A DNA stretch of 34,443 bases, from IMG/VR virus record IMGVR_UViG_3300025082_000031, positions 1 through 34,443 of that record; one strand, 5' to 3'. The position numbers and the translations under genes are program-made. The notes under the pieces were generated by a model, which ran no database searches, had not been told where the DNA came from, and saw only the letters and a program-made list of their open reading frames with translations. Positions 1-34,443 of the stretch are shown piece after piece. The stretch is from a virus (taxonomy: Duplodnaviria; Caudoviricetes). How positions within the stretch are numbered: the stretch's first letter is position 1; the number at the start of each line of letters is the position of its first letter.

Positions 1-134
1 TTGCATTTCTCCAGTAGATATCCCCGCTGCTTTCATAAATACACCGCCGATCTGCGGAGGTGGTGGCATCGGCACTGGAGTCAAATGCCACCGTTCGCAG
101 CTCGGTTGCATCATTTGCATTGAATCCCAGATCA
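1..134 (+). repeat. Terminal direct repeat, left copy (circularisation overlap)
   Basis: 1-134 equals 34310-34443 except C126 vs T34435. Confidence 0.97.
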
Positions 135-7008: not shown

Positions 7009-7190
7009 TAGGACTCCTGGTATTCTCGGATTAGACTATTTTCAGAAGGAAGTGCAGGCATTTTCAGTTCCGGCATTTCCTGGTAAAATTTCACTTTCAA
7101 ACCATGTCCTTCAAACTCTGCCACCCGGTTTTCACTGAGGTATTTGATCAAATCTCTGGAATCTTCCAGGGTTGTTACTTTACGCAGCAC
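7008..7190 (-). CDS. Hypothetical protein (60 aa)
   Basis: Overlaps both neighbours (TAATG coupling to portal); AG-rich RBS. Confidence 0.65.
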   Translation of the reverse strand: MLRKVTTLEDSRDLIKYLSENRVAEFEGHGLKVKFYQEMPELKMPALPSENSLIREYQES

Positions 7191-10100
7191 GTTCTCTTCT
7201 CCTCATTATCTGGGGCGCCTGCATCTGTGCCATCTGCTGGTTTCGTTTTTTGATCGGCTGCTCCAGCTGCGTCAGGAAATCATCAGATTGAGGATTGAAA
7301 AGACCAATGTTCCCGATTGCAGATTTGATCTGTTTCGGATTAAAAACCACAACTTCATTCCCACCAACGATGGCATCAAATCCAGATTCCTCTGCCAGTT
7401 CTGACATGTCGATTCCAAGGGTGTCGGTCAGATTTTCAACAAACTGCCAGGGTAATTTGATGTCAGATGCTTTTTTATCAAAAAGGTTTTCTGCATCTCC
7501 TATAGTCAGCTCATGATCGGACCAGGTCATTGCCTGGAAAAACCCTTCCTTTAATTTTTGCAGCATCTCATCATTAAATTTACTTTTATGCATATTTAAA
7601 GGATTTTTGATTGACAAATAAAATGGAAGGATTTCTGGAGAAAACACTTTATCTTCCATAACCACAACGGCCATATCACCTGCATACTGATCTTCTGCAT
7701 ATTGTTTCAACCCAGCTGCTGTTTTTGGATAATTGTCATCGTTGTAAAAATCCACATTATCAAAATCAAATTCATCAATCTGTTCTGTGAGTTCATCAGA
7801 ACCAACCTGAGATGGATCTGCAAAGACCTTGGCAACCGGTCCACTGATATCCTGCGAAGTTAATTGTTCATCAATGCTTTCTGCATAGTGTTCCGCCGTC
7901 AATGCTTTTGGAGAAAAATAAAATCCTTTTCCATGGTATCCATGATCCCGCAATCCCTGCTTTTCCTTGTCAAATTTGGTTCCCTCAAAACTCGGAGATC
8001 CATGGAAAAACAGCATTGGATCAGTCAGCTCCATATCCTCCATGGTACTGTCGGAAAATTGATTCATTTTCACCTGCTCCGGACCAATTACGGTGACAAA
8101 ATCGTTTTTGTCATGATCAAAAAATAGTTCAAAGGTTGCAGCAGATGGAGTATCACCGGGCTGGTCCTTTTCAAAGTCCCAGTTCCACCAGCGTTCAAAA
8201 TTATGCTGGCGTTTTGATTTGTCTAGGATGGGATGCTGGAGTTCCCGCGCAGATTCGTAGTCGCGCAGGGCGTTTTGGAGATATGTTTGATTTTCCGGGG
8301 AACCAGGTGCTTCACCAAAGACGGTGGAAGCAGTATCTCCGGGAAGGACTAATTGTTTTGTTCTGGGGAGGCTTCTGGAGACGATGGACCAATCTGGTTC
8401 CCTTCCTGGTCCACCAGTTCTACGGGCTGCCTGGTCAAGAGCTGACCGAACGCGGGCCTCAAGTTCTGGCCGGTAATTATTTCGTAGGTCGTCCACAAGC
8501 GATCTTTTCGCCGCTGCTTCGATCCTTTCACTGTAACGTTCGCCATTGTTATCCTTTGTCCAATCATTGTGTCGAATTCTTATGTTAACATCTTCCCATT
8601 CAATTTCAAAGTCGATTCCTTTACCTGGAAATATCTCATTGACGGCATCAACTATGGTTTGTGCATTATTTTCGATGTATGTACGTAATTGCTTTGGATT
8701 GCTTTTTTGCCACAGTGCCTCTTGCGCCCCCTTAGTACCGGGGATATCCTCCCCTTTTTTCGGTTTAACTTCCAAACCACCTTTCGGCATTGGCGGGAAT
8801 GCATCAAGAAGCTGCTGGGTCCATTCTGGATCTTTGCTTTTTTGTATATTGGCCAATATTCCAGGATCAACATGGGATGGTTTCTTCCGTAACCATCTAA
8901 GCAGCTCGGTATTTCCACCTTGAGCGGCCATTTCTGGAGTGGTGACAATCATCCGGATTCCAGGCTTGCCATCTTCCAAAATTGGTTGAAAACCCTGGAA
9001 AAGACCCGGATTCAATTGGTTCACTGACGCCCAGATCTTCTGGAGATTATCCCCCTTGGTGATTCGGTCTGTACCATTTTCCAGAATATCAACTGCAATC
9101 CCGTTCCCATCATCTGCACCTTCAGAAACCGGACGCACCGCCCAGACTTCCGTCTGCTGCGCGAGATATCCCACGATATCTGCATACAGATCCGCCCCTT
9201 CCGGGGATGCAAGCAGTGATTCCACCATGGCAGGTGCAGGATCATAACTTTGCCACCCTCCATGCCCATGGACTCGGCCAATGTTGACGGTTCCCGCCAG
9301 TTCATTAGCAACATCACCCACCCAGGACATCACTTCCCGCGTCACCCTGGTTTTTTCTGGACCTGGAAGGTTTTCAAATTCCGGGAATTCCACACTTAAT
9401 GGAGATCCTTCGCCAAAACTCAATTCTGCACTGACACGCTGGATATTTTGGTCAATTGCTTCAGGGACATCCTCCCCAGGCGCCCCATACAGGTCTGACA
9501 TCGCCATCCAGCCAATCGCCTGGACATCGGGTGCTTCTAACTCAAAATCAATTCCATGATCTAACCCCCATCCACGACTTATCAATTCACCAGCAATGCG
9601 GCGCCCCTGGTTGGCAGCCCATTCATATTGGGTTTCACTCCATCCACCTTTAGGTTGATCAATTTGCAGTTCATATCCCTTTGGGATTCTATAATTTTTC
9701 TTAATGAACTTCGCATAGGTGTCATCCACAAAACCCATGTCCCTGCCAGTGTGGACATCCACCACAAATGGGGCGCCTGCGTCCGGATCTAGGTCATAAT
9801 AGGTCCGGAATTTGTTCTGCATTGCTGCATCATAGAAATCATGGATTTTCTGACCGGCACCTTTGTCAATCGGCTCACCTTCTGCAATCTTAAACAATGG
9901 ATAATCGGCGGTTCCGGATTGTTGTCTGCCAGGATCATCAAATTTGACTCCACGCCGTGCCTGTTCCCGCTGCTTCACATAGGCCCGGATTGCTTGACTA
10001 GGAGATGCCTGCTGTGAACCCACCAAAAACCCGGATTCCATCTCTGGAGTCATCTCTGGTCCCACTGTACTTAGGAAGGGTTCAATCATTTTGTTGGACC

Positions 10101-10671
10101 GATACCATTTGGAAGAGTCCACAATGCGTTCCGAGGGCAAAACCCCTTCAACCCGGCGTATCCAATCCTTTGCGGTTTGTGGTCCAATCCTCAAAGGCGG
10201 CAATAAGACCCCTCTTTTGGGCTGCAGAAGTATAGATTTGTTCTTTGGCGCCCCTGGAAGGGTTGCCTTTTTGTCCAAAAGGAGTTTTTTCTGGTTTTGT
10301 TTCTCTCGATTCTTCCTTTTTGTGGCCCGATCCGCAGATGCTGCAGAAGGGGTAAGGACTTGTTCAAAATCACCACTCAAAGTGGGTGGGACTTCTGCCC
10401 ACATTGAGGCTTTTAACCGGGTTAAGGCTTTGTCTGTGGAAGACTCGGACGCCGGTGGAAGCATTATTGGTGAAATCGTTGGCGCTGCGGCCATTGGTGG
10501 ATCGGCCAGCTCCATAATTGCCTGCCCAGGTCCGCCCAAAACACGCCGAGCTGCAGTTTTTGCAGCAGCTTTCCTAACCGTGGACATTGGCTGCTTTGCC
10601 TGGAGGGTTTCCAGACCAAAATCTTCTGCCGGAAAAGTAAGATCCGTTTGTTGGTTCTGGTTTTCTGCCAT
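7180..10671 (-). CDS. Large polyvalent protein with C-terminal ADP-ribosyltransferase-like (ART-PolyVal type) domain and a possible DNA-glycosylase-like region
   Basis: FFHGS...GKGFYFS...LPFYLSIKNPL...GFDAI..NEVVVFNPKQIKSAIGNIGLFNP at the C-terminus; WY...GQKIHDF...VVDVH..R..G...QAIGW in the N-terminal half. Confidence 0.72.
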   Translation of the reverse strand: MAENQNQQTDLTFPAEDFGLETLQAKQPMSTVRKAAAKTAARRVLGGPGQAIMELADPPMAAAPTISPIMLPPASESSTDKALTRLKASMWAEVPPTLSGDFEQVLTPSAASADRATKRKNREKQNQKKLLLDKKATLPGAPKNKSILLQPKRGVLLPPLRIGPQTAKDWIRRVEGVLPSERIVDSSKWYRSNKMIEPFLSTVGPEMTPEMESGFLVGSQQASPSQAIRAYVKQREQARRGVKFDDPGRQQSGTADYPLFKIAEGEPIDKGAGQKIHDFYDAAMQNKFRTYYDLDPDAGAPFVVDVHTGRDMGFVDDTYAKFIKKNYRIPKGYELQIDQPKGGWSETQYEWAANQGRRIAGELISRGWGLDHGIDFELEAPDVQAIGWMAMSDLYGAPGEDVPEAIDQNIQRVSAELSFGEGSPLSVEFPEFENLPGPEKTRVTREVMSWVGDVANELAGTVNIGRVHGHGGWQSYDPAPAMVESLLASPEGADLYADIVGYLAQQTEVWAVRPVSEGADDGNGIAVDILENGTDRITKGDNLQKIWASVNQLNPGLFQGFQPILEDGKPGIRMIVTTPEMAAQGGNTELLRWLRKKPSHVDPGILANIQKSKDPEWTQQLLDAFPPMPKGGLEVKPKKGEDIPGTKGAQEALWQKSNPKQLRTYIENNAQTIVDAVNEIFPGKGIDFEIEWEDVNIRIRHNDWTKDNNGERYSERIEAAAKRSLVDDLRNNYRPELEARVRSALDQAARRTGGPGREPDWSIVSRSLPRTKQLVLPGDTASTVFGEAPGSPENQTYLQNALRDYESARELQHPILDKSKRQHNFERWWNWDFEKDQPGDTPSAATFELFFDHDKNDFVTVIGPEQVKMNQFSDSTMEDMELTDPMLFFHGSPSFEGTKFDKEKQGLRDHGYHGKGFYFSPKALTAEHYAESIDEQLTSQDISGPVAKVFADPSQVGSDELTEQIDEFDFDNVDFYNDDNYPKTAAGLKQYAEDQYAGDMAVVVMEDKVFSPEILPFYLSIKNPLNMHKSKFNDEMLQKLKEGFFQAMTWSDHELTIGDAENLFDKKASDIKLPWQFVENLTDTLGIDMSELAEESGFDAIVGGNEVVVFNPKQIKSAIGNIGLFNPQSDDFLTQLEQPIKKRNQQMAQMQAPQIMRRRERAA

Positions 10672-18960: not shown

Positions 18961-18989
18961 TTGACCTTCTGTCGTTATGTTGATATATT
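18961..18989 (+). promoter_or_regulatory. Putative lysogenic promoter TTGACC-17-TATATT
   Basis: Near-consensus sigma70 hexamers upstream of the integrase. Confidence 0.6.
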
Positions 18990-19017
18990 GTACATAAAGA
19001 ATGAATAACGCACAATG

Positions 19018-19046
19018 AAAGTGCATCTAAGGTTAATGAATGTCAA
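19018..19046 (-). promoter_or_regulatory. Putative lytic/early promoter TTGACA-17-CACTTT
   Basis: Perfect -35 and weaker -10, pointing toward the early operon. Confidence 0.45.
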
Positions 19047-19065
19047 CAAGAACACAAGAGGAAAA

Positions 19066-20301
19066 ATGAAAAATCTGAAAGAACTCAAGAATTTTAAGGG
19101 GAATCTAAGGGACCAACCGTTTGGACTTTTCCCGATTAATAAAAGACAATTCAAAGCTTCTGATATTCCAAAACTCACACCGGAAGAAGTGAATGTCCGC
19201 GCACTCCTGTCAAATCCCAATGGCACTAACAAACTCCGCCCCATCATCTGCACCGTTGCAGATCTCCCAGATACCGATCAGTTAGAATTCATCCTCGGCA
19301 AAGTTCGCCAACTCCGGGAAAATGCTGCGGTTTCTGAAACATCAGCAGCAGGCGCTGAAGGTGTCCGCACCCTTTCCACACTCATTAAAAAATATTTGAT
19401 TGAAGTTGCACCAGAAAAGAAAAGCGCCTGGGACATCCGCGCACGCCTCACCATCTGGGAGGAAAAGCTTGGATCAAAGACCCTGGAAGAAGTCACTCCT
19501 GCAGATATCTCCGCGATCAAACGTGAGTTGAATAAGACGCGCAGCGGCGCCACTGTTAATCGATTCCTTGGTGTTCTCTCCGCCGTCTTCAGCTACGCGA
19601 TCCGCGAGCTTCACTGGATTCAATCCAATCCACTTTCCCAGGTTCAAAAGTTCAAAGAAAACAATGACCGAATCCGCTGGTTGAATGATGAGGAACGCGA
19701 GCAGCTGTTTGCTGGATTAGAAAAATCCGAAAGCCGCGAGCTGAAAGATCTGGTGATTTTCTGCTTGGCAACCGGATGCCGCAAAGGTGAGGCACTTGGA
19801 TTGACCTGGGATGATATTGATTTTGAAAGCGGCAGTATTGAATTCAAATCAGTTCGCCGCCGTGTTCTTTGCTCGGAAGCATTCATTGATGAGAAGACCG
19901 GCCAGGTGAATCTCTCTTTTAAAAAGAATCAGCATGATGCTGGATTGAAGAATAAATCAAAGATCAAAAAACTGAGCATTGATGATCCTGCATTTAGTCC
20001 ACTAGTGACGATATTGAAGGAACGCAAGTTCCGGCTGCAGTCAGAATCTAATTTTGTTTTCCCACATGACCCACGGCACGCATGGCAGAATTTGATCAAG
20101 CGCACCGGTCTGAAGGATTTCAAATTCCATGACCTTCGCCACACCTGTGCATCCTACGCGATCCAGGCCGGCAAGACCCTTTTAGAGGTTGCAGTTCAGT
20201 TAGGTCATGAGTCCCTGGTCAGCGCAAAACGATACGCGCATCATGATCCAAAGGCCAATGTCGGAACCGGAGCAGCAGTCGCATCAAGACTTTTTGGATG
20301 A
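19066..20301 (+). CDS. int: Tyrosine recombinase / phage integrase (likely start 19066)
   Basis: ATGCRKGE (R), HDLRHT (HxxR), LGH, RYAH (Y); AGAGG RBS before ATG 19066. Confidence 0.95.
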   Translation: MKNLKELKNFKGNLRDQPFGLFPINKRQFKASDIPKLTPEEVNVRALLSNPNGTNKLRPIICTVADLPDTDQLEFILGKVRQLRENAAVSETSAAGAEGVRTLSTLIKKYLIEVAPEKKSAWDIRARLTIWEEKLGSKTLEEVTPADISAIKRELNKTRSGATVNRFLGVLSAVFSYAIRELHWIQSNPLSQVQKFKENNDRIRWLNDEEREQLFAGLEKSESRELKDLVIFCLATGCRKGEALGLTWDDIDFESGSIEFKSVRRRVLCSEAFIDEKTGQVNLSFKKNQHDAGLKNKSKIKKLSIDDPAFSPLVTILKERKFRLQSESNFVFPHDPRHAWQNLIKRTGLKDFKFHDLRHTCASYAIQAGKTLLEVAVQLGHESLVSAKRYAHHDPKANVGTGAAVASRLFG

Positions 20302-20330: not shown

Positions 20331-20690
20331 ATGGAACTAACCAAGGAAGAATTAAAAGATCAAGGACGCCGGATCAAGAAGATCCGCCAGGAACAGAATC
20401 TGAAGCAGGATGATTTCTGCGCTGCATTGGGCATCAGCAGATTCAGTCTGGGAAGGATCGAAAGAGGTGACCAAGCAATCGATGCTACATCACTTTATAA
20501 CCTTAAAACAAAATACGATGTCTCTGCGGATTGGATTCTTTTTGGGAAGGATCTAGGAGCAAATACAGCTTTAGAAAAAGAGCTGGAAACTTTAAAGCAA
20601 CGACTCGCAGATAAAGAAGAAATTATCCACCTTTTGAAAAAGACTGCCGGTTTGTGTAATGAGGTTAAAAGGATTATTAATAGTACATAA
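20331..20690 (+). CDS. XRE-family HTH repressor (cI-like, no S24 peptidase domain seen)
   Basis: GRRIKKIRQEQNLKQDDFCAALGISRFSLGRIERG...VSADWILFG; C-terminal coiled coil. Confidence 0.85.
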   Translation: MELTKEELKDQGRRIKKIRQEQNLKQDDFCAALGISRFSLGRIERGDQAIDATSLYNLKTKYDVSADWILFGKDLGANTALEKELETLKQRLADKEEIIHLLKKTAGLCNEVKRIINST

Positions 20691-20897
20691 ACGATCACCC
20701 ATCAATCACCCATGGCTAAATCGGATGTCACCCTAAACCCGTAAACCGTTGCAAACAGTACACGGAGGTGGATGCGTCACTGGTGGGCGTCCCGGTCTTC
20801 AAAACTGGGGCGGTTCAATAATATCAATGGGTTAGCTATAAAAATATCAATCACAATCAATCACCCAGGGGGGTTTCAATCACCCAAACGATCACCC
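20690..20897 (+). promoter_or_regulatory. attP: attP region with arm-type repeats (ATCACCC core) and an IHF site
   Basis: aacgatcaccc/atcaatcaccc at 20690, 20701, 20856, 20875 and 20887 flank a tRNA fragment; TATCAAtgggTTA at 20822-20834 fits the IHF consensus WATCAANNNNTTR. Confidence 0.8.
20764..20808 (+). tRNA. selC: Partial tRNA-Sec, 5' half only (attP core), anticodon UCA
   Basis: GGAGGTGG 8-nt acceptor strand, extended D stem around a TGGT loop, CCGGT-CTTCAAA-ACTGG anticodon arm; no variable arm, T arm or 3' acceptor strand follows. Confidence 0.8.
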
Positions 20898-20976
20898 ACA
20901 CATATTAATGTTTCAGATTTACGCACCGGTTTTCCACCAGGGCGTTTTTTTCTCGGCGGGAGTTTGCCGGGGTACA

Positions 20977-21174: not shown

Positions 21175-21278
21175 TTCTTTTTCCTTATTTTAGTACCATG
21201 TTTTTTCTTCCAGGATTTATAAATCTTGGGTTTATTAATCGCGAGGTAGCTGCGCTGCTTTTTCGATTTAAAAGGCAT
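21171..21278 (-). CDS. Small very basic protein (35 aa; not in ORF track)
   Basis: MPFKSKKQRSYLAINKPKIYKSWKKKHGTKIRKKK; TGATG and ATGA coupling on both sides. Confidence 0.7.
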   Translation of the reverse strand: MPFKSKKQRSYLAINKPKIYKSWKKKHGTKIRKKK

Positions 21279-33338: not shown

Positions 33339-34443
33339 TTAAAAACCCCAAATTATTGAATCGTAAGTGGTTGCCAGCACTGCTGATTGACTAATTATTT
33401 CCTGACCAAAAACAATCTGCTCGCTGGAATTTGTTGTGATAAATTTTATATATGAATTCGATGATTCCGTTATGTTCAATGCATCCGCAAGATTATCAGT
33501 TAACGTGATTTTGTTTAGTGTGGTGTTTCCTCCAAAAACTAAATCTAACCCAACTGCTGCATCTGCAACTGATACGGAATCACAATCGATGTCTCCAACA
33601 TTGAGAATCGCTCGGTCCCCAAGATCAAGAGTTCCTGCAATCGAGGTCACACTGGCTGCCCCTGCTCCTATGGTGACATCCACCTCTCCATCAGTGGATG
33701 TCCCGGTTAGGATAAATCCAGGCGTTACGGTTCCATCATACTCGGCTACTGAGATGCTGATTTTCCCTTCTTCACCTCCAGATGTCGGATCTACAACTTC
33801 AGCTAAAATAGTAGAATAAATCTGGTTATTGTTGGCATCATCATTCGCATAAAAATTAATGGTCCCACAATCATCATTCGCAACTCCCGCATTTGATCCA
33901 CCACGGAGATTTTTCAGATTAAGGATGGCAGAAGTTGCATCATCAGCATTGTTTGCCAATGTGAACACTGGTTTTGATGCAGTTGTCGAGGTAATGGAAA
34001 TGTCAGAGAGTGCTGAAGCGGAAGTGACAAAGGTTCCAGTTTCATCTGGAAGAGTTAAAACCCCTGACGCTCCACTACCCGTATATTTTAACGTGACCAG
34101 GTCATTGGAATTACTGTAGTTGTATACTGCAAAATCAGAGAATGCCATTTTCGCCACTGACTCCGGTGAGGTTGTGGAGTCATAAACAAAGGAATAGCTT
34201 TTTGCCGTATCGTTATAAGTGACCTTGGCATCTGTGCTGCCCATACCATCAATGCTGCCTACACCAGATCCAACTGCTGTCCCGGATGTTATTTGAACCG
34301 CCGTGCCGCTTGCATTTCTCCAGTAGATATCCCCGCTGCTTTCATAAATACACCGCCGATCTGCGGAGGTGGTGGCATCGGCACTGGAGTCAAATGCCAC
34401 CGTTCGCAGCTCGGTTGCATCATTTGCATTGAATTCCAGATCA
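33339..34443 (-). CDS. Tail fibre/spike-like virion protein, C-terminal part (gene starts at 295 across the junction)
   Basis: Gly/Ser/Thr/Asp-rich beta-type sequence, LTLPDETGT motif; frame open to the contig end. Confidence 0.8.
   Translation of the reverse strand, partial: DLEFNANDATELRTVAFDSSADATTSADRRCIYESSGDIYWRNASGTAVQITSGTAVGSGVGSIDGMGSTDAKVTYNDTAKSYSFVYDSTTSPESVAKMAFSDFAVYNYSNSNDLVTLKYTGSGASGVLTLPDETGTFVTSASALSDISITSTTASKPVFTLANNADDATSAILNLKNLRGGSNAGVANDDCGTINFYANDDANNNQIYSTILAEVVDPTSGGEEGKISISVAEYDGTVTPGFILTGTSTDGEVDVTIGAGAASVTSIAGTLDLGDRAILNVGDIDCDSVSVADAAVGLDLVFGGNTTLNKITLTDNLADALNITESSNSYIKFITTNSSEQIVFGQEIISQSAVLATTYDSIIWGF
34310..34443 (+). repeat. Terminal direct repeat, right copy
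   Basis: Matches 1-134 at 133/134 positions; lies inside a gene that reads in frame through the junction. Confidence 0.97.

What the first reader, a model, noticed from the sequence alone, without database searches (positions are those of the whole stretch)
20764..20808. attP carries the 5' half of tRNA-Sec, so the lysogen's selC would be driven from the phage side
Seen: a tRNA-Sec-like 5' half (8-nt acceptor strand, long D stem, CUUCAAA anticodon loop) ends right after the anticodon arm. It starts 73 nt downstream of the repressor stop, on the same strand, with no obvious terminator between. Known: tRNA-targeting integrases usually supply the 3' part of the gene. Inference: crossover near the anticodon loop would rebuild selC from the phage 5' half plus the host 3' half, cut off from its native promoter and downstream of int-repressor. 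Host selenoprotein synthesis might then depend on prophage transcription. It also predicts a Sec-using host.
Basis: partly seen in the sequence, partly recalled or inferred. Interest (0 to 1): 0.8.

Follow-up and report, generated by a model that had tools for sequence, protein, structure and literature searches.

The report
Phage attP carries selC's front half
A marine temperate phage carries the front half of the selenocysteine tRNA gene of SAR324 bacteria in its attachment site, so a lysogen's rebuilt tRNA gene would lose its own promoter and would likely be transcribed from the phage integrase-repressor operon; this reversed insertion is rare but already known for other tRNA genes.

Summary
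Confirmed. The window is a circular temperate phage. Positions 20764-20803 are the 5' half of tRNA-Sec inside an intact attP (2+3 arm repeats, IHF-like sites). A 185,579-species scan hit 7 complete selC genes, all in one family that includes a SAR324-titled genome. The match has 1-2 mismatches in 40 nt and stops 2 nt past the anticodon loop. All 13 IMG/VR contigs with the motif are phage attPs lacking the 3' half; tRNA positions 1-24 are 98% conserved while arms drift to 45-55%. Host-side traces exist: one metagenome contig joins a phage-type left arm to a full selC, and 3 of 45 family genomes hold a displaced, decayed 5' half. No intact lysogen was found. No conserved promoter lies in the attP arm, so read-through from the int-repressor operon is the best guess, untested. 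Hosts encode selA, selB and UGA-containing selD. 5'-fragment insertion is a known minority class (159 of 3919 Islander islands; archaeal pTN3). My searches found no paper for selC or SAR324, but this scan noted 5'-half selC elements before in other genomes.

The parts
18961..18989 (+). Predicted sigma70-type promoter of the int-HTH unit (TTGACC-17-TATATT, extended TG); candidate driver of the rebuilt selC
   Evidence: 10 of 12 matches; only 2 sites found against 5.4 in shuffles, so weak alone; score 10.6, shuffle p 0.017
19015..20301 (+). Tyrosine integrase, 428 aa (true start possibly Met18), catalytic residues present
   Evidence: PF00589 E 3e-20; phrog_1 E 6e-60; R256, H372-x-x-R375, Y407 invariant in 29 homologues
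20331..20690 (+). HTH_3 regulator, probable repressor (role inferred); stop codon abuts the first arm repeat
   Evidence: PF01381 E 4e-10; PHROG repressor and regulator hits
20689..20712 (+). Left arm: two direct repeats (ATCACCCA core), predicted arm-type integrase sites
   Evidence: families D1 and D2; same 2+3 layout with a different motif in each related phage
20742..20759 (-). Left IHF-like site, degenerate in the window and a near-perfect inverted copy of the right site in relatives
   Evidence: sequence; IHF consensus recalled
20764..20803 (+). 5' half of tRNA-Sec (selC): acceptor 5' strand, D arm, anticodon 5' strand and CTTCAAA loop
   Evidence: 1-2 mismatches in 40 nt to 8 complete selC genes
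20788..20812 (+). Predicted att core: 9-nt imperfect inverted repeats (7 of 9) around a 7-nt overlap at 20797-20803, the anticodon loop
   Evidence: sequence; phage-host identity runs 0-4 nt past the loop in 7 attP variants
20822..20834 (+). Right IHF-like site
   Evidence: sequence fits the recalled consensus WATCAANNNNTTR; conserved in relatives
20855..20898 (+). Right arm: three direct repeats, predicted arm-type sites
   Evidence: families D1 and D2
21209..21261 (+). Two terminator-like hairpins that could stop rightward transcription crossing attP or attL
   Evidence: 6 found against 4.4 in shuffles; weak

Best explanation
This is the attachment site of a temperate phage that likely infects SAR324 bacteria; its integrase is predicted to cross over in the anticodon loop of the host selC, so the phage's 5' half plus the host's 3' half would rebuild a working tRNA-Sec behind the int-repressor operon, whose read-through transcript likely supplies it. 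Shown: the attP anatomy, the host match, conservation of the whole 5' half, and junction-like and relic sites in host DNA. Inferred: the exact crossover, that the HTH protein is the lysogeny repressor, co-transcription, and RNase P removal of the leader. The old promoter would stay on the displaced 5' half at the other prophage end and read into phage DNA.
For: Intact attP layout in all 13 of 13 IMG/VR contigs with the motif, 7 distinct attP types counting the window. All 9 loci with an integrase at 46% identity or more carry the 5' half. tRNA positions 1-24, outside the 9-nt core arm, are 98% identical among the 7 types, against 45-55% for the arms and 80% for the right core arm, so more than integrase binding holds them. 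Phage-host identity begins at G1 and ends 0-4 nt after the loop. Window half plus host half keeps acceptor pairing in 5 of 5 hosts tested. L104 has a phage-type left arm (alignment score above the shuffle maximum for 7 of 7 phage arms; 4 of 5 host upstreams below it, one a point above), then a complete selC and no native promoter. G006 has the native promoter on a decayed 5' half at -1130, one co-directional cargo gene, then the full selC without that promoter. G016 has promoter plus 5' half only. In 7 of 7 attP types a co-directional ORF stops at -73 or -74, whatever the ORF. No conserved promoter in the left arm.
Against: No intact lysogen: 0 of 45 family genomes match the phage terminase (no positive control), and the 8 of 45 with integrase hits are only 30-40% identical and none lies beside a selC. 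L104 is a single 1.2-kb contig of very low stated coverage (0.52) with a divergent NUDIX gene, not int-rep, upstream; it could be a relic or a misassembly. The three relics lack an integrase, so the element that made them is unknown. Weak + strand terminator-like hairpins lie inside int, rep or the extra ORFs of L003, L004 and L007, at about chance numbers except L007 (9 against 2.8). A TTGCCT-17-GATATT candidate promoter sits 7 nt before G1 in L004 and L007 (p 0.07-0.08). Integrase-less variants (L094, L096) and run contigs that skip the repressor and left arm keep the 5' half. One near-identical relative of the L139 integrase is labelled Puniceispirillaceae.
Confidence: 0.6

Rival explanations
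1. Same integration, but the attP left arm carries its own weak promoter overlapping the IHF site, so the rebuilt selC is expressed independently of the int-repressor operon.
For: TTGCCT/TTGCCC-17-GATAYT lies 7 nt before G1 in L004, L007 and L095, close to the 8-nt spacing of two host promoters. In L104 the upstream gene points away, so that selC, if real and active, needs a local promoter. dusA islands are reported to bring putative -10/-35 boxes (PMC4482086).
Against: The window's own arm scores -3.6 (shuffle p 0.99), L094 -0.7 and L104 2.2; none of 7 phage arms reaches p below 0.05. The conserved motif is mirrored on the right arm and present in relatives that carry 3' tRNA halves, so IHF binding explains it.
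Confidence: 0.27
2. The rebuilt selC is poorly or not expressed; lysogens tolerate loss of Sec, and the 5' half is only a recombination handle or a recent leftover.
For: No promoter in the window's arm; the formate dehydrogenase alpha matches in 5 hosts carry no in-frame stop, so the main FDH does not need Sec; integrase-less variants keep the half.
Against: 98% conservation of positions 1-24 across integrases down to 46% identity, starting exactly at G1, with only pairing-compatible changes; displaced copies in hosts decay while the phage copy does not.
Confidence: 0.08
3. The half tRNA acts as RNA during lytic growth (decoy for SelB, SerRS or an anticodon nuclease) and integration is secondary.
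For: It persists in variants lacking int, or lacking the repressor and left arm.
Against: It sits exactly between arm repeats and IHF-like sites and ends at the overlap; the stretch shows no special folding; those variants otherwise keep attP parts and look recent.
Confidence: 0.05

Closest known systems
Reversed-orientation (5'-fragment) tRNA-gene islands: Islander class of 159 of 3919 islands (PMC4383910, parts 1-2 of 3 read); Zhao and Williams 2002 (title and a citing passage in PMC6563490 only)
   Same: Tyrosine integrase, anticodon-centred att site, element supplies the 5' part, displaced 5' fragment left upstream.
   Different: The target is selC, and the element is a free circular phage with an intact attP and a predicted SAR324 host. 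The parts read do not list 5'-fragment islands by target tRNA, so selC cases may be in the Islander database.
pTN3-like archaeal integrases (PMC8371274 and PMC5495485, passages read)
   Same: att is the 5' half of a tRNA gene (41 shared bp in pTN3; 40-42 here); the rebuilt gene is separated from its promoter and described as expressed from the integrase promoter.
   Different: In pTN3 attP lies inside the integrase gene, which is split on integration. Here int stays whole and attP lies downstream of int and an HTH gene, with lambda-type arms and IHF-like sites.
Conventional selC-targeting elements, e.g. Pf-tRNA-Sec prophages of Pseudomonas aeruginosa (PMC7549136, passages read)
   Same: Same target gene.
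   Different: They carry a 27-bp 3' end and leave selC on its own promoter. Conventional 3' elements also flank selC in these SAR324 genomes (L104, L224, L226).
dusA-associated integrases (PMC4482086, passages read)
   Same: The element replaces the 5' end of a host gene and must provide its transcription.
   Different: Protein-coding target; putative promoter boxes were reported there, none is convincing here.
tRNA-dependent lysogeny of actinophages (PMC10865867, passages read)
   Same: Host tRNA supply in the lysogen depends on phage DNA.
   Different: Those phages do not rebuild the gene and encode a whole tRNA; this phage encodes no whole tRNA.

Membership tests
Lambda-type tyrosine-integrase attP | Adjacent tyrosine integrase with catalytic residues | tested here: met
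Lambda-type tyrosine-integrase attP | Arm-type direct repeats on both sides of the core | tested here: met
   2 left and 3 right; same layout with other motifs in relatives
Lambda-type tyrosine-integrase attP | 7-bp overlap flanked by inverted core sites, shared with attB | tested here: met
   CTTCAAA identical in all 7 attP types and 8 host genes; 7 of 9 inverted repeat
Lambda-type tyrosine-integrase attP | Recombination demonstrated | not testable with these tools
   needs an in vitro or plasmid assay
5'-fragment (reversed) tDNA element | attP holds the 5' part of the tRNA gene and not the 3' part | tested here: met
   identity to host 3' half 18-29%, i.e. background
5'-fragment (reversed) tDNA element | Integrated form: displaced 5' fragment, element with integrase, then full gene | tested here: inconclusive
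   Relics without integrase (G006, G013, G016) and one arm-plus-full-gene contig (L104); no complete integrated copy
5'-fragment (reversed) tDNA element | Rebuilt gene transcribed from element DNA | not testable with these tools
   no RNA holder listed; promoter scans only
pTN3-like suicidal integrases | attP inside the integrase gene | tested here: not met
   attP core is about 500 nt downstream of the int stop; works like pTN3 but is not a member
tRNA-dependent lysogeny | Short core, tRNA not rebuilt, phage encodes a complete cognate tRNA | tested here: not met
   no complete tRNA in the window; the half can rebuild the gene

The most novel reading that the evidence does not exclude
This SAR324 phage lineage switched from carrying 3' tRNA halves to carrying the 5' half of selC without gaining a promoter, so in lysogens the single tRNA-Sec gene is the last cistron of the repressor operon: the host selenoproteome, including its Sec-containing SelD, rises and falls with the phage lysogeny switch, and deletions that silence the prophage's repressor promoter are selected against.
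Probability: 0.3. Interest if true: 0.65.

Novelty: new member of a known kind. Interest (0 to 1): 0.42.

Why it matters
It gives a precise host link and integration site for an undescribed phage group of SAR324, an uncultured marine lineage. If read-through is confirmed, it is a clean case of a prophage's regulatory transcript carrying a host translation gene, and so gating UGA recoding. Relics in 3 of 45 genomes suggest that 5'-side insertion has repeatedly rewired selC expression in this family. The mechanism itself is already known for other tRNA genes.

Tried and rejected
Chance match: rejected by 42 of 43 identity to complete selC genes. Complete phage tRNA: none. Sigma54 promoter upstream: spacing checked by eye against the recalled consensus, no fit. 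The conserved TTG-N-TATTACT motif as a -10 box: rejected as evidence because it is mirrored on the right arm and found in relatives with 3' halves. Lysogen hunting: terminase 0 of 45 genomes; a 5'-half model over 88 phylum genomes matched 68, with one orphan half (G016). Of its 6 weak extra hits only one (G055) was fetched and was unrelated coding DNA. That model missed the decayed halves in G006 and G013, so 3 of 45 is a lower bound; the alignment scan that found them covered only 13 regions. Laying 8 of 20 listed runs gave assembly contigs that either span attP intact or break at the 43-nt shared stretch, which cannot show a junction. No RNA holder listed. GenBank phages: no DNA match to the attP, terminase relatives at 25% or less among the rows listed. 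In the tree my label filter wrongly put three unlabelled proteins in the 3' group; its group statistics are not used, only the topology. Williams 2002 and Zhao and Williams 2002 are not held. No supplements were read; Islander's island lists could show earlier selC 5' cases.

Full report
The window. It is a whole virus record of 34,443 bases with a 134-nt terminal repeat, one mismatch, so a circular genome. Pfam and PHROG scans of 37 ORFs show terminase, portal, capsid, RecT and exonuclease and an M15 endolysin on the minus strand, and only two genes on the plus strand at the finding: a tyrosine integrase (19015-20301) and an HTH regulator (20331-20690). The catalytic residues are invariant in 29 aligned homologues.

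The observation. Positions 20764-20803 match tRNA-Sec weakly by Rfam (28.5 bits) and do not fold better than shuffles. ARAGORN finds no whole tRNA. The stretch lies between two left and three right direct repeats and between two inverted IHF-like sites (consensus recalled). The anticodon loop is flanked by a 7-of-9 inverted repeat. This is the layout of a lambda-type attP with the loop as the 7-bp overlap.

Relatives. Two patterns found the same 13 IMG/VR contigs. All 13 are attPs without the 3' half: 2 identical to the window and 11 in six other types. The arm motif differs from type to type. Among the 7 types, tRNA positions 1-24 are 98% identical, the loop 100%, the right core arm 80% and the arms 45-55%. 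All 9 loci with an integrase of 46% identity or more carry the half. Three phage loci with integrases at 35-41% carry ordinary 3' fragments instead; three others (L141, L142, L144) showed no fragment. In a 38-row tree the five selC integrases lie on one branch (90/81) beside the branch with the 3' carriers (94/92) (group statistics not used because of a labelling slip).

Host. An exact 30-nt pattern found 7 loci among 185,579 species. All are complete selC genes, one record is titled SAR324, and all 7 genomes fall in one 45-genome family. The window differs from them at 1-2 of 40 positions; identity stops 2 nt after the loop, and is at background beyond it. The window's half keeps acceptor pairing with 5 of 5 host 3' halves; the L003 variant mismatches in 2 of 5. 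A pattern search found one selC-type match in 31 of 45 genomes, two in one and none in 13. selA was found in 5 of 5 genomes, selB in 5 of 5, selD with one TGA in 4 of 5 and Rdx with one TGA in 5 of 5; FDH alpha matches had no stop. A TGGAC motif lies within 60 nt upstream in 24 of 33 selC genes examined, and in most of the 18 tabulated it is followed after 17 nt by an nAnnnT hexamer: the native promoter is adjacent and would be left behind. One contrary label: a protein nearly identical to the L139 integrase is named from a Puniceispirillaceae MAG, perhaps a binning error.

Integrated traces. One metagenome scan for phage left arm plus host 3' bases gave 1 contig, L104. It holds a complete selC preceded by a phage-type arm spacer (79% over 103 nt to L003, tRNA half included; above shuffle maxima against 7 of 7 phage arms). 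It has no int or HTH upstream, is 1.2 kb and of very low coverage. In G006 the native promoter sits on a decayed 5' half that ends at the loop, 1130 nt upstream; a co-directional 317-aa gene and an IHF-like site follow, then the full selC. G013 has a decayed half at -258 (these two scored 16-17 against 9 or less in the other 11 of 13 regions). G016 has promoter plus half and no full gene was found in the assembly. No intact prophage was found, and 8 laid runs could not resolve a junction.

Who transcribes the rebuilt gene. A matrix trained on host promoters scores the window's left arm at -3.6 (shuffle p 0.99); the best relatives reach p 0.07-0.10; the int promoter reaches p 0.017 (host scores are circular). 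The conserved motif before G1 is explained by the IHF-like site. In 7 of 7 types a co-directional ORF ends 73-74 nt before G1, though a fixed attP length could also cause this. No terminator-like site lies on the path in the window or L139; weak ones do in L003, L004 and L007. Repressor-integrase co-transcription in lysogens is known from P2 and 186 (recalled). Read-through is therefore preferred (0.6) over a local promoter (0.27). Excision would restore the native gene, so the dependence is not an addiction system; G006 suggests the native promoter or cargo transcription can take over after decay.

What is known. Islander counts 159 of 3919 islands with a 5' fragment (PMC4383910, parts 1-2 read). 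A review states that pTN3-like archaeal integrases use the 5' half and that the rebuilt tRNA is expressed from the integrase promoter, seldom so in bacteria (PMC8371274, passages; PMC5495485; PMC6563490 citing Zhao and Williams 2002). Klebsiella islands upstream of arg2 are another case (10.1101/2020.11.02.365908, passages). The selC prophages I could read about use the 3' end (PMC7549136). Searches for selC or tRNA-Sec with integrase and att terms and for SAR324 with prophage terms (listings only) showed no report of this case; the library lacks most subscription papers. The scan's own index lists five earlier notes of 5'-half selC elements in other genomes; they are unchecked and are not counted as support, but two led me to the Zhao and Williams citation.

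Verdict. Real and well supported as a reversed-polarity selC attP of a likely SAR324 phage; a new member of a known, uncommon kind. The phage-driven expression of selC is plausible and untested. Interest 0.42.

Noticed in passing
L094/L096 (= L220/L222); runs X16 and X19 at window 20248 and 20340-20733: Variants of this phage replace most of the integrase with two small ORFs but keep the HTH gene and attP; contigs in two runs also skip the HTH gene and the left arm repeats. Possibly lytic or helper-dependent derivatives.
   Followed up: partly
L140:6600-6650, L143:650-712, L149:835-900: Sister integrases (35-41% identity) in similar phages carry ordinary 3' tRNA fragments (CAT-anticodon tRNA 3' half; a T-arm fragment) in the same int-to-attP layout. 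The selC integrases fall on one branch (90/81) beside them (94/92), consistent with one switch of polarity.
   Followed up: partly
L234 (G013), 258 nt upstream of selC: Decayed selC 5' half followed by what looks like a second copy of the promoter region and the intact gene.
   Followed up: partly
L228 (G044:C133), 45-1134 nt upstream of a second, different selC: A divergent tyrosine integrase and an IHF-like site directly upstream of selC; possibly an unrelated 5'-type element on a contig from another organism. No displaced fragment found in 6 kb.
   Followed up: partly
L097, L101, L103, L104, L224, L226, L227, L231, just downstream of selC: IHF-like sites and arm-like repeats, in some cases integrase fragments or a displaced 3' fragment: selC is also a hot spot for conventional 3' elements in this family.
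   Followed up: no
window 7180-10671 (-): 1163-aa protein between terminase and portal with an ART-PolyVal ADP-ribosyltransferase domain (E 1e-17).
   Followed up: no
window 1-134 and 34310-34443: 134-nt terminal repeat with one mismatch: the contig is a circular 34.3-kb genome with SU10-like capsid, portal and adaptor matches.
   Followed up: yes
L003, L004, L007, L095, L139 between the HTH gene and attP: Variable small co-directional ORFs occupy this slot and always stop at -73/-74 from the tRNA half; not annotated.
   Followed up: no
G001, G004, G005, G006, G045: SelD (4 of 5) and Rdx-family proteins (5 of 5) have one in-frame TGA, while formate dehydrogenase alpha matches have none.
   Followed up: partly
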